From the IMG/VR virus record IMGVR_UViG_3300029415_000001: a stretch of DNA of 64,000 nucleotides; one strand, given 5' to 3'. Source of the stretch: a virus (lineage: Duplodnaviria > Heunggongvirae > Uroviricota > Caudoviricetes). Below are positions 6,756-7,800 of this stretch, one piece after another. How positions within the stretch are numbered: position 1 is the stretch's first letter; every line of letters starts with the position of its first letter. The translations under genes and the position numbers were made by a program. Below the pieces are notes generated by a model. The model did no database searches. It was not told the DNA's origin and saw only the letters and a program-made list of their open reading frames with translations.

Positions 6756-6992
6756 ATGCAGAACAATCCGAACAAATGTCGAACGCTATGGGTGCGGTTA
6801 TATATTTATGCCGTCCTCTGTTTGATTGTGTCACTGGTTCTGTATGTTTGGCTTTTGCCAAATATGATCTCATCTAACAGCACAATACTTGTATTGTTGG
6901 GAGTCCTTCTCGCGCTCATTTACCCGGCTTTCGCAGTAGTCTTTTTTCGTGAAAAAACCAGGAAATTAATTAATGAAAAAAACGTTGATTAG
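6756..6992 (+). CDS. small two-helix membrane protein (NfeD-like partner candidate)
   Basis: 78 aa, two hydrophobic helices, GAGAGG RBS; 3' end overlaps start of SPFH gene. Confidence 0.5.
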   Translation: MQNNPNKCRTLWVRLYIYAVLCLIVSLVLYVWLLPNMISSNSTILVLLGVLLALIYPAFAVVFFREKTRKLINEKNVD

Positions 6993-7800
6993 TGCAGCGA
7001 TTATTTTGGGTTCTTTATGTCTGACCGGATGCGATCGGGTAGAGCCAGGTAACGTAGGGATCAAAGTAAATAAGCTGGGGGATGATAAAGGTATCGGTGA
7101 AGTAGTTGGTGTTGGTCGCTACTGGACAGGCTTGAATACTGAAGTTTATATCTTCCCGACCTTTAAGCAAATGAAGACATACGATGAGCCGTTCAGCTTC
7201 CAGATGAGCGACGGAACAACCATTGGTTACCACATCGGCGTAGCCTACAAGGTTGATCCAGCAAAAGTCACAACGGTATTTCAGACCTATCGCAAAGGTG
7301 TAGATGATATTACTGATACCGATCTACGCCAGAAGGTTGCAGATGCTCTGAACCGGTTAGCCAGCAAAATGACCACCGACAAATTTATCGACGGTGGCAA
7401 ATCTGAATTGCTTGATGCAGCCCTTAAAGACATTCAGGAAGAAATGACGCCAATCGGCATTCAGGTGATGAGCCTCTCTTATGTAGGTAAGCCAGAATAT
7501 CCGCCAACAGTTATTGACAGTATTAACGCCAAAGTTACGGCAAACCAAAAAACCCTGCAACGCGAGCAAGAGGTCAAACAACGTGAAGCAGAGGCCAACA
7601 TGCTGCGCGCGGAAGCTGCCGGACAGGCTGATGCTATTCGCACAAAAGCCCAGGCCGAAGCTGATGCCATTCGTTTACGTGGTGAAGCTCTGCGCCAGAA
7701 CCCCGGTGTTATGGAGTTGGAAGCGATCAACAAATGGAACGGTACATTACCGCAGTATATGACCAGTAATGCCGCTGTTCCGTTTGTTCCGGTGAAATAA
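6973..7800 (+). CDS. SPFH/band-7 domain lipoprotein
   Basis: Lipoprotein signal with lipobox LTGC; band-7-like core followed by Ala/Glu/Arg-rich coiled coil (QREQEVKQREAEANMLRAEAAGQADAIRTKAQAEADAIRLRGEALRQ). Confidence 0.7.
   Translation: MKKTLISAAIILGSLCLTGCDRVEPGNVGIKVNKLGDDKGIGEVVGVGRYWTGLNTEVYIFPTFKQMKTYDEPFSFQMSDGTTIGYHIGVAYKVDPAKVTTVFQTYRKGVDDITDTDLRQKVADALNRLASKMTTDKFIDGGKSELLDAALKDIQEEMTPIGIQVMSLSYVGKPEYPPTVIDSINAKVTANQKTLQREQEVKQREAEANMLRAEAAGQADAIRTKAQAEADAIRLRGEALRQNPGVMELEAINKWNGTLPQYMTSNAAVPFVPVK

What the first reader, a model, noticed from the sequence alone, without database searches (positions are those of the whole stretch)
6756..7800. SPFH/band-7 lipoprotein with overlapping small membrane partner inside the tRNA cluster
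A lipoprotein with an SPFH-like core and long coiled coil, translationally coupled to a 78-aa two-helix membrane protein, sits between the tRNA-Thr/repeat array and tRNA-Ile. SPFH plus small membrane (NfeD-like) pairs organise membrane microdomains, and SPFH proteins recur in defence islands. The role on a phage-plasmid is unclear.
Basis: partly seen in the sequence, partly recalled or inferred. Interest (0 to 1): 0.4.

Follow-up and report, generated by a model that had tools for sequence, protein, structure and literature searches.

The report
Phage SPFH lipoprotein with hairpin partner

Summary
Window 6756-6992 encodes a 78-aa two-helix membrane protein. It overlaps by 20 nt a 275-aa lipoprotein (6973-7800) with a bona fide SPFH/Band-7 domain and a 65-residue helix (Pfam E=1e-30; AlphaFold model matches HflK/C, prohibitin, erlin and stomatin).

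The window is about 99.5% identical to P1-like phage RCS47. The cassette 6731-7818 exactly replaces the tciABC (TerB-like) cassette of P1, inside the C1-controlled ban operon. The two cassettes occur in similar numbers of P1-like plasmids (189 versus 191).

The small protein is not NfeD. It belongs to its own family, with a conserved turn (P-x-L-I-S...G). It precedes the SPFH gene in about 90% of loci from many phyla, and is fused in frame to it in 13% of family representatives, with the lipobox cysteine kept.

The family occurs in 392 phage genomes, virulent ones included, always in early or replication regions. It also sits in ordinary chromosomal settings in Leptospira and Dyella. No known defence system matches.

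Most likely it is a self-contained scaffold on the periplasmic face of the inner membrane, made early in infection. Its physiological role is inferred, not shown. I rate it a moderately interesting new variant of the SPFH-plus-partner theme.

The parts
6731..7818 (+). Swapped cassette: ribosome-binding site plus two genes. It replaces the 716-nt tciA-tciB-tciC segment of phage P1.
   Evidence: blastn of the window against P1 NC_005856: homology stops at 6730 and resumes at 7819. P1 annotation of the same slot.
6745..6748 (+). Shine-Dalgarno GGAG for the small ORF, 7 nt before the ATG
   Evidence: Read from the sequence.
6756..6992 (+). 78-aa two-helix inner-membrane hairpin protein (partner); predicted N-in/C-in
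   Evidence: ORF list. Hydropathy and charge distribution. PHROG_1130 'membrane protein', E=6.4e-16. Conserved upstream of SPFH genes.
6858..6881 (+). Conserved periplasmic turn of the partner (P35-N-M-I-S39-S-N-S). P35 and S39 are invariant, and G49 in helix 2 is nearly invariant, across 19 diverse members.
   Evidence: Alignments.
6960..6963 (+). Shine-Dalgarno AGGA for the SPFH gene, lying inside the small ORF
   Evidence: Read from the sequence.
6973..6992 (+). 20-nt overlap of the two ORFs. Relatives overlap by 1 or 4 nt.
6973..7800 (+). 275-aa SPFH/Band-7 lipoprotein
   Evidence: Pfam PF01145, E=9.7e-31. PHROG_200 'lipoprotein', E=2.9e-113. AlphaFold2 model. Foldseek.
6973..7035 (+). Lipoprotein signal peptide: lipobox L-T-G-C, Cys20 (7030-7032) and Asp21 at +2
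   Evidence: Read from the sequence. The aligned Cys is present in 99 lipoprotein-type and 19 fusion-type representatives out of 142.
7036..7596 (+). SPFH domain (residues 22-208)
   Evidence: Pfam envelope. Strands and helices in the model.
7504..7698 (+). Long Ala/Glu-rich helix (residues 178-242), equivalent to the wall helix of SPFH cages
   Evidence: DSSP on the model, H178-242. Full-length alignments to HflK/C, prohibitin and erlin chains.
7735..7782 (+). Conserved C-terminal segment (W255, G257, P260 and P270 invariant in 40 sequences). Low confidence in the monomer model.
   Evidence: Alignment A2. pLDDT below 50 for residues 262-275.
4992..5021 (+). C1 operator (ATTGCTCTAATAAATTT) and Pban promoter region of the ban operon, upstream of and co-oriented with the cassette
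   Evidence: Sequence. P1 annotation of the homologous position. 99.7% identity to P1 over 5000-5920.
7828..7903 (+). tRNA with CAT anticodon, 28 nt after the SPFH stop. Followed by ban (8183-9553).
   Evidence: ARAGORN. Rfam. P1 annotation as tRNA-Ile2.

Best explanation
The locus is a self-contained, two-component envelope module carried as an exchangeable accessory cassette in the early (ban) operon of a P1-like phage-plasmid.

Proposed working (each step marked):
1. The 275-aa protein is exported, lipid-modified at Cys20 and kept on the outer leaflet of the inner membrane. Inferred from the lipobox, the Asp at +2, and relatives that are tethered by a transmembrane helix or fused to one.
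2. Its SPFH domain, long wall helix and conserved C-terminal segment assemble into a homo-oligomeric ring or cage facing the periplasm, as HflK/C does. Inferred from the fold.
3. The 78-aa hairpin sits in the inner membrane with both ends in the cytoplasm. It shows only a short conserved turn (P-x-L-I-S) to the periplasm, and this turn is the likely contact with the scaffold. Inferred from conservation, gene order and gene fusions.
4. The two proteins are made together, by overlapping translation. On a P1-type element they are made when C1 repression of Pban is lifted, that is, early in lytic growth rather than in the quiescent prophage. Inferred from position only.

The most likely physiological role is to reorganise or insulate a patch of the inner membrane of the infected cell. 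It could stabilise that patch against damage, or block entry of competing phage DNA or toxins. It would not be a virion part, a lysis gene or a lysogen defence system. This last step is the least supported.
For: Fold and lipoprotein features:
-.

Functional link between the two genes:
- A two-helix ORF with the same turn motif directly precedes or overlaps the SPFH gene in 80 of 81 viral loci.
- The same holds in about 74 of 82 loci from Enterobacterales, Dyella, Pseudomonas, Sutterella, Cohaesibacter, Leptospira, Bacteroidota and others.
- 19 of 142 family representatives are in-frame fusions of hairpin, lipobox Cys and SPFH. One of these was checked at the DNA level.

Inner-membrane location:
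- The fusion order fits a periplasmic SPFH domain. The fusion model gives three helices and then the SPFH domain, with pLDDT 85-88 for the hairpin.
- A further 22 of 142 representatives lack the lipobox Cys and have a short hydrophobic N-terminus instead, probably an uncleaved membrane anchor.

No third partner:
- Neighbours of 30 diverse loci share no recurrent family.

Early expression:
- P1-like: downstream of the C1 operator and Pban.
- P2-like P88: between cox and the replication gene A.
- Stx2 phage: between cI and xis-int.
- Cohaesibacter prophage: after DNA polymerase A.
- Virulent N4-like Pylas: between the RNA polymerase subunits and dUTPase.

Accessory and exchangeable:
- The cassette swaps exactly with tciABC.
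- 189 plasmids carry it versus 191 with full tciABC, among about 432 plasmids with P1-type ban.
Against: - No experiment or literature report bears on localisation, oligomerisation, partner binding or phenotype. Papers that mention such genes call the role unclear.
- Oligomer state could not be modelled with the tools available.
- No promoter was detected near the cassette, and a strong terminator (5182-5209) lies between Pban and it. Expression timing is therefore inferred from gene order alone.
- The strength of Asp+2/Arg+3 as an inner-membrane retention signal is not established here.
- In more distant branches the upstream gene is a different membrane protein (Bruynoghevirus, phiCbK-like phages) or absent (Kapaibacterium, Cytophagales, and E. 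coli and Shigella chromosomal copies). The hairpin is therefore not universally required.
Confidence: 0.45

Rival explanations
1. It mimics HflK/C. The periplasmic SPFH cage captures or competes for the host protease FtsH. It thereby changes the turnover of phage regulators (as HflK/C does for lambda CII) or of membrane proteins, tuning the choice between lysis and lysogeny.
For: - HflK is the best PDB sequence match (E=1.8e-4), and HflK/C chains are the top structural matches.
- NCBIfam gives only weak HflC/HflK hits.
- It has the same predicted periplasmic orientation.
- In an Stx2 lambdoid phage the gene lies in the leftward early region that holds such regulators.
- The idea has been raised in the literature for Pseudomonas phages.
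Against: - Identity to HflK/C is only 17-20%.
- Scores are 23-25 bits against equivalog cut-offs of 134-159.
- There is a single SPFH gene rather than an HflK+HflC pair, and a lipid anchor rather than an N-terminal transmembrane helix.
- The pair is present in virulent phages with no lysogeny decision, and as a chromosomal gene pair in bacteria that have their own HflK/C.
- Nothing here shows FtsH binding.
Confidence: 0.15
2. It is an anti-phage or anti-toxin defence module (superinfection exclusion or abortive infection) that protects the lysogen or plasmid host. The hairpin acts as a membrane effector, or the cage as a physical block to DNA entry.
For: - It is an accessory cassette in a variable slot, allelic with a TerB-like 'tellurite/colicin resistance' cassette.
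- It is carried by many temperate phages and phage-plasmids.
- The partner has the size and topology of small membrane effectors.
- From general knowledge, the phage T4 Imm/Sp exclusion proteins are likewise small early membrane proteins.
Against: - PADLOC gives no match for the SPFH protein, and only an insignificant one for the partner (E=0.023).
- There is no sensor or enzymatic domain.
- The cassette sits in a C1-repressed operon, so it is probably silent in the prophage.
- The same pair occurs in virulent N4-like and other lytic phages, and in housekeeping chromosomal contexts in Leptospira and Dyella.
- Exclusion during lytic growth is still compatible and is folded into the best explanation.
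Confidence: 0.15
3. It is an SPFH-NfeD pair: the small protein is a short NfeD that docks in the SPFH cage.
For: Operon adjacency of a small membrane protein with an SPFH gene, and occasional fusion, recall SPFH-NfeD operons. The QmcA-YbbJ structure is among the fold hits for the SPFH protein (rank 34).
Against: - No NfeD (PF01957) hit at E<=1 for the window protein, nor at E<=0.01 for any of 19 diverse members.
- No NfeD/YbbJ chain is found with a family profile at E<=10.
- Only 14 residues follow helix 2, too few for the OB-fold domain.
- The SPFH domain is periplasmic here, whereas the partner's termini are cytoplasmic.
Confidence: 0.03
4. It is a lysis-timing device: the hairpin is a class II holin or pinholin-like protein and the SPFH lipoprotein regulates it.
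For: The hairpin is about 60-80 aa with two helices, N-in/C-in, a charged C-terminus and a conserved Gly in helix 2. There is a faint PHROG holin hit (E=0.099).
Against: - The holin hit is not significant.
- The pair never sits in a lysis cassette in the contexts examined. It sits in early or replication regions.
- It occurs in non-phage chromosomal settings.
- It is fused to the SPFH protein in 13% of representatives.
- The most conserved part is the periplasmic turn, not the helices.
Confidence: 0.05

Closest known systems
HflK/HflC (E. coli periplasm-facing SPFH cage around FtsH)
   Same: SPFH domain plus long wall helix plus C-terminal segment. Top sequence and structure matches. Predicted periplasmic orientation on the inner membrane.
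   Different: One gene rather than a hetero-pair. Lipid anchor rather than an N-terminal transmembrane helix. 17-20% identity, and far below the NCBIfam equivalog cut-offs. It has its own two-helix partner. No evidence for FtsH as a client.
SPFH-NfeD operons (for example QmcA-YbbJ, PDB 8z5g; archaeal stomatin with its NfeD protease)
   Same: An SPFH scaffold encoded next to, and sometimes fused with, a small membrane partner. Likely forms a scaffold-partner complex.
   Different: The partner lacks the NfeD OB-fold domain and has no NfeD sequence signal. The scaffold is a periplasmic lipoprotein, whereas the QmcA SPFH domain is cytoplasmic (general knowledge).
Prohibitin-type SPFH proteins (PHB1/2)
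   Same: The wall-helix region matches prohibitin-2 in sequence (E=0.004-0.02) and in fold. Some family members are named 'prohibitin family protein' by NCBI.
   Different: Bacterial or phage lipoprotein, with a homo-oligomer presumed, and an unrelated partner.
P1 tciA-tciB-tciC cassette (TerB-like; annotated as tellurite/colicin resistance or inhibition of cell division)
   Same: Occupies exactly the same slot between upl and the CAT-anticodon tRNA in the ban operon. Also small, membrane-associated accessory genes. Similar frequency among P1-like plasmids.
   Different: No sequence relationship: no TerB hit among the Pfam results. The shared function is only guilt by position.
PHROG_200 'lipoprotein' and PHROG_1130 'membrane protein'
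   Same: The two window proteins are clear members (E=2.9e-113 and 6.4e-16).
   Different: These are sequence clusters without an assigned function. The PHROG_200 profile carries an extra ~80 N-terminal positions, which fits fusion members. The pairing of the two PHROGs is not recorded in those names.

Membership tests
SPFH / Band 7 (Pfam PF01145) | Sequence match above the Pfam gathering score | tested here: met
   107.6 bits against a cut-off of 23.6, E=9.7e-31, residues 22-208 covering profile positions 2-176 of 176.
SPFH / Band 7 (Pfam PF01145) | Alpha/beta SPFH fold followed by a long helix, as in cage-forming members | tested here: met
   AlphaFold2 model, pLDDT 80, helix 178-242. Foldseek probability 1.0 to HflK/C, prohibitin, erlin, stomatin, flotillin and QmcA over about 245-309 alignment columns.
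SPFH / Band 7 (Pfam PF01145) | Assembly into a membrane-abutting ring or cage | not testable with these tools
   Only monomer prediction was available. The C-terminal 14 residues have low confidence in the monomer.
Bacterial lipoprotein (Lgt/LspA substrate) | Positively charged n-region, hydrophobic core, and a lipobox [LVI][ASTVI][GAS]C | tested here: met
   MKKTLISAAIILGSLCLTGC, with L-T-G-C ending at Cys20. The aligned Cys with a lipobox is present in 118 of 142 family representatives.
Bacterial lipoprotein (Lgt/LspA substrate) | Inner-membrane retention (Asp at +2 in Enterobacteria) | tested here: inconclusive
   Asp21 is present, followed by Arg. Fusion and TM-anchored relatives imply an inner-membrane location. 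Localisation itself was not measured.
NfeD (Pfam PF01957), for the small partner | C-terminal NfeD OB-fold domain | tested here: not met
   No NfeD hit at E<=1. None in 19 diverse members at E<=0.01. No NfeD/YbbJ chain with a profile at E<=10. Only 14 residues follow helix 2.
NfeD (Pfam PF01957), for the small partner | Membrane protein encoded adjacent to an SPFH gene | tested here: met
   Two transmembrane helices. Overlapping or adjacent to the SPFH gene in about 90% of loci.
HflK / HflC (NCBIfam TIGR01933 / TIGR01932) | Equivalog-level sequence score | tested here: not met
   23.3 and 24.7 bits against cut-offs of 159.4 and 134.4.
HflK / HflC (NCBIfam TIGR01933 / TIGR01932) | Two paralogous SPFH subunits, each with an N-terminal transmembrane helix | tested here: not met
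   There is a single SPFH gene in the cassette, with a cleavable lipoprotein signal peptide.
Known anti-phage defence systems (PADLOC-DB 2.0) | Match to any component model | tested here: not met
   SPFH protein: 0 families. Partner: one insignificant hit, PDC-M18B, E=0.023.
Class II holin / pinholin, for the small partner | Small two-helix N-in/C-in protein encoded in a lysis cassette, with a holin family match | tested here: not met
   The topology fits. However, the only holin hit is E=0.099, and the gene context is early or replication regions, not lysis.
PHROG_200 / PHROG_1130 | Significant profile match | tested here: met
   E=2.9e-113 and E=6.4e-16.

The most novel reading that the evidence does not exclude
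The hairpin plus lipoprotein pair is an undescribed, ancient type of periplasm-facing SPFH cage system that cells use for inner-membrane organisation. Phages of many lineages have repeatedly captured it as an early gene to seal off or re-purpose a patch of the host inner membrane, for example to block DNA or toxin entry or to shield the membrane until programmed lysis. In the fused versions, an internal lipoprotein signal would be cut by signal peptidase II, yielding the same two products from one polypeptide.
Probability: 0.25. Interest if true: 0.65.

Novelty: new variant of a known kind. Interest (0 to 1): 0.38.

Why it matters
SPFH genes are noted in hundreds of phage genomes, and papers repeatedly call their role unclear.

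This work shows three things:
- The gene comes as a fixed pair with a conserved hairpin partner, which RefSeq annotation often leaves out.
- The pair is sometimes fused.
- The pair sits in early operons of both temperate and virulent phages.

Together these give the family a defined composition, topology and likely time of action.

In P1-like phage-plasmids the cassette and the TerB-like tciABC cassette are alternative alleles at one site, present in similar numbers. That offers a natural isogenic comparison for finding out what either cassette does.

The finding does not bear on a long-standing open question, and it would not greatly surprise a specialist.

Tried and rejected
- **NfeD identity of the partner:** rejected.
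- **Known defence system:** no PADLOC support.
- **Third conserved gene in the module:** Pfam and PHROG scans of 114 neighbours from 30 diverse loci gave no recurrent family beyond generic phage regulators.
- **Local promoter for the cassette:** the consensus scan found none in 4900-8300. It also missed the annotated Pban, so it is uninformative.
- **Tandem repeat array next to the locus:** Tandem Repeats Finder found none. Only dispersed degenerate repeats were found.
- **Non-coding RNA in the region:** Rfam finds only the three tRNAs.
- **Literature:** five full-text searches found no functional study of a phage SPFH lipoprotein. The P1 genome paper could not be retrieved.
- **'Serine protease' label:** this label, seen on homologues in several GenBank records, has no support. 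No protease family was detected. I infer that it was copied from 'membrane protease subunit' names for HflK/C.
- **First context script:** it picked wrong-frame ORFs and was replaced. Apparent 'no partner' cases were inspected by eye, and several were reclassified.
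Full report
**What the window is**

Region 5500-8200 is 99.5% identical to Escherichia phage RCS47, a P1-like phage-plasmid, and about 98% identical to P1 itself where the two align. The surrounding genes are those of the P1 ban operon region:
- dmt, ending at 5001.
- The bivalent C1 operator and Pban, with ATTGCTCTAATAAATTT at 4992-5008.
- tRNA-Asn and tRNA-Thr.
- plp and upl on the minus strand.
- The two genes of the finding.
- A CAT-anticodon tRNA at 7828-7903.
- ban (8183-9553) and dbn.

**The observation**

Both ORFs are present as described.

Small ORF (6756-6992, 78 aa):
- It has a GGAG 7 nt upstream of the start.
- It has two hydrophobic segments.
- Positive charges sit at both ends and none in the nine-residue connecting turn. 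This predicts a hairpin with both termini in the cytoplasm.

SPFH ORF (6973-7800, 275 aa):
- It starts inside the small ORF, overlapping it by 20 nt. Its AGGA lies within the small ORF's coding sequence.
- It begins with a lipoprotein signal peptide (lipobox L-T-G-C, Cys20) followed by Asp.
- Pfam Band_7 matches at E=9.7e-31 over residues 22-208.
- An AlphaFold2 model built on a 40-sequence alignment (mean pLDDT 80) shows the alpha/beta SPFH domain. It also shows a single helix over residues 178-242, a short second helix and a low-confidence tail.
- Foldseek against the PDB returns HflK/C, prohibitin, erlin, stomatin, flotillin, QmcA and major vault protein, all at probability 1.0. Most alignments run nearly the full length.

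**The partner is a family of its own, not NfeD**
- The small protein hits PHROG_1130 ('membrane protein', E=6.4e-16) but no Pfam family convincingly.
- I collected partners from 26 diverse loci. They share 15-46% identity with the window protein but have the same architecture.
- In a 19-member alignment the signature is an invariant Pro and Ser in the turn (P35 and S39 in the window protein, consensus P-x-L-I-S). A Gly in helix 2 is nearly invariant.
- None of the 19 members hits NfeD, and a family profile finds no NfeD/YbbJ chain in the PDB.
- Only 14 residues follow helix 2, so the OB-fold domain that defines NfeD cannot be present.

**The two genes form a unit**
- In 80 of 81 informative IMG/VR loci a 62-78-aa two-helix ORF ends 1, 4 or 20 nt into the SPFH gene. 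The one exception has a truncated copy.
- I scanned one genome per species with a family alignment. After inspecting doubtful cases by eye, about 74 of 82 informative loci have the partner.
- These loci come from Enterobacterales, Dyella and other Rhodanobacteraceae, Pseudomonas, Sutterella, Cupriavidus, Leptospira and Bacteroidota. They also include a Dependentiae and a Pacearchaeota assembly.
- A Cohaesibacter prophage, found by a separate protein look-up, also has the pair.
- Two further loci carry interrupted copies. Six lack the partner: chromosomal copies in E. coli and Shigella, and distant Kapaibacterium, Ignavibacteria and Cytophagales relatives.

An exhaustive HMMER search of 1.84 billion cluster representatives found 218 clusters at E<=1e-30. 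Of the 142 full-length proteins among the best 150:
- 99 are lipoproteins.
- 22 lack the lipobox cysteine and have only a short hydrophobic N-terminus.
- 19 carry an N-terminal extension that is the hairpin, with the same turn motif in 16 of them.
- 2 have other N-terminal extensions.

In the 19 fusions the hairpin is followed by a third hydrophobic segment that still ends in the lipobox cysteine. That cysteine is invariant in an alignment of 18 such fusions.

One fusion was confirmed as a single open frame in the DNA. Its model has three helices and then the SPFH domain.

The fusion order (hairpin in, third helix out) puts the SPFH domain in the periplasm. This agrees with the lipoprotein reading.

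Neighbouring genes of 30 diverse loci share no recurrent family, so the module appears to be complete with two genes.

**Where the module lives**

The SPFH protein has relatives in 392 phage records.

Temperate phages:
- P1-like phages.
- P2-like P88.
- Stx-converting lambdoid phages.
- phiE125.

Virulent or large phages:
- N4-like Pylas and phiEaP8.
- rV5-like myoviruses.
- Bruynogheviruses.
- crAss-like phages.
- Lak megaphages.
- phiCbK-like phages.

In Pylas the pair is gp28 ('2 TMDs N in C in', with the same motif) and gp29. The two overlap by 4 nt, between the early RNA polymerase subunits and dUTPase.

In each of the following the pair is co-oriented with early genes:
- P88: between cox and replication gene A.
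- An Stx2 phage: between cI and xis-int.
- A Cohaesibacter prophage: just after DNA polymerase A.
- The window: 1.7 kb downstream of Pban.

The more distant Bruynoghevirus and phiCbK-like homologues have a different membrane protein upstream.

The pair also sits in ordinary chromosomal neighbourhoods:
- Next to fumarate reductase and an EAL protein in Leptospira.
- Next to ribonucleotide reductase in Dyella.

It is therefore a cellular module that phages have borrowed.

**The P1 slot**
- Alignment to P1 shows homology up to 6730 and from 7819 onward.
- The 1,088 nt in between replace the 716 nt that encode tciA, tciB and tciC in P1.
- The swap includes the ribosome-binding site but no recognisable promoter.
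- Among PLSDB plasmids, 432 hold most of P1-type ban. Of all plasmids searched, 189 hold the SPFH cassette and 191 hold a full tciABC cassette.
- A related SPFH gene is in 423 of 5,426 complete E. coli genomes, and the full cassette is in 192.
- RefSeq annotation under these matches lists only the SPFH gene. The small ORF is usually not annotated.

**How it most likely works**

Shown:
- The fold.
- The lipoprotein signal.
- The hairpin topology, by sequence rules.
- The obligate pairing and the fusions.
- The early-operon placement.
- The cassette exchange.

Inferred:
- Retention in the inner membrane.
- Ring or cage assembly on its periplasmic face, by analogy with HflK/C and other SPFH cages.
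- Contact through the conserved turn.
- Expression on release of C1 repression.

The physiological role is the weakest step. The pair occurs in virulent phages and in cellular chromosomes, and it matches no PADLOC model. The annotated promoter upstream of it is C1-repressed. All of this argues against a lysogen-protecting defence system or a plasmid-stability function.

The early, non-lysis context argues against a lysis gene, and export argues against a virion protein.

What remains is an envelope function in the infected cell: organising or insulating a patch of inner membrane. Its effects could include stabilisation, exclusion of incoming DNA or toxins, or control of a host membrane protein such as FtsH.

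The HflK/C-mimic version is a real rival but lacks specific support.

**Comparison and novelty**

The protein is a member of the SPFH superfamily and of PHROG_200. It is not HflK, HflC or an NfeD-partnered stomatin by the tests applied.

The gene is annotated in public records, sometimes wrongly as 'serine protease'. Papers that mention such genes say the role is unclear.

I found no description of any of the following:
- The conserved hairpin partner.
- The fusions that keep the lipobox.
- The early-operon rule.
- The allelic relationship with tciABC.

I file it as a new variant of the SPFH-plus-membrane-partner theme, of moderate interest.

Noticed in passing
window 5830-6630 (minus-strand plp 5952-6371 and upl 6372-6563): Degenerate dispersed direct repeats with about 200-280 nt spacing (for example a 34-nt motif at 5904, 6100, 6333 and 6594, and a 25-nt pair, 96% identical, at 6272 and 6551). 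Tandem Repeats Finder finds no tandem array. Relative to P1 the window has about 173 extra nt at 5921-6093, apparently one more unit, which lengthens plp to 139 aa.
   Followed up: partly
window 5182-5209 (+): A strong intrinsic-terminator-like hairpin with a T-run lies right after the region homologous to the P1 'dicF-like' element. It sits between Pban and the tRNA/cassette genes, so downstream expression needs read-through or another promoter.
   Followed up: no
window 6756-6992; RefSeq plasmid and E. coli records under hits H26-H42: The 78-aa partner ORF is usually absent from RefSeq/PGAP annotation of the same cassette. Only 'SPFH domain-containing protein' is listed, although the exact protein is on record on at least 1,000 contigs.
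   Followed up: partly
window 7828-7903: ARAGORN calls this CAT-anticodon tRNA Met. The P1 annotation calls the homologue tRNA-Ile2 (ileX-like, lysidine-dependent).
   Followed up: no
L084 3342-4412; proteins P0176, P0180, P0193 and others: In-frame fusions of hairpin and SPFH keep an invariant lipobox cysteine after a third hydrophobic segment. This suggests an internal lipoprotein signal that signal peptidase II could cut.
   Followed up: partly
L088 and L089 (Shigella and E. coli chromosomes), L096 (Symbiopectobacterium), L043: These are SPFH genes at 78-100% identity with no partner, or with an interrupted or truncated one. They may be decaying prophage copies.
   Followed up: partly
GenBank records of RCS47 (FO818745), Stx2 phages, P88 and Klebsiella phages: Homologues are labelled 'serine protease', 'transposase' or 'transferase' in various records. 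No such domain is detectable.
   Followed up: partly
L168 3222-3440 (Pseudomonas phage DL54) and L170 3152-3502 (Caulobacter phage Karma): Distant SPFH homologues (26-39% identity) are preceded by different membrane proteins: a 72-aa protein with one C-terminal helix, and a 116-aa protein with several hydrophobic stretches. The partner may have been replaced in these lineages.
   Followed up: partly
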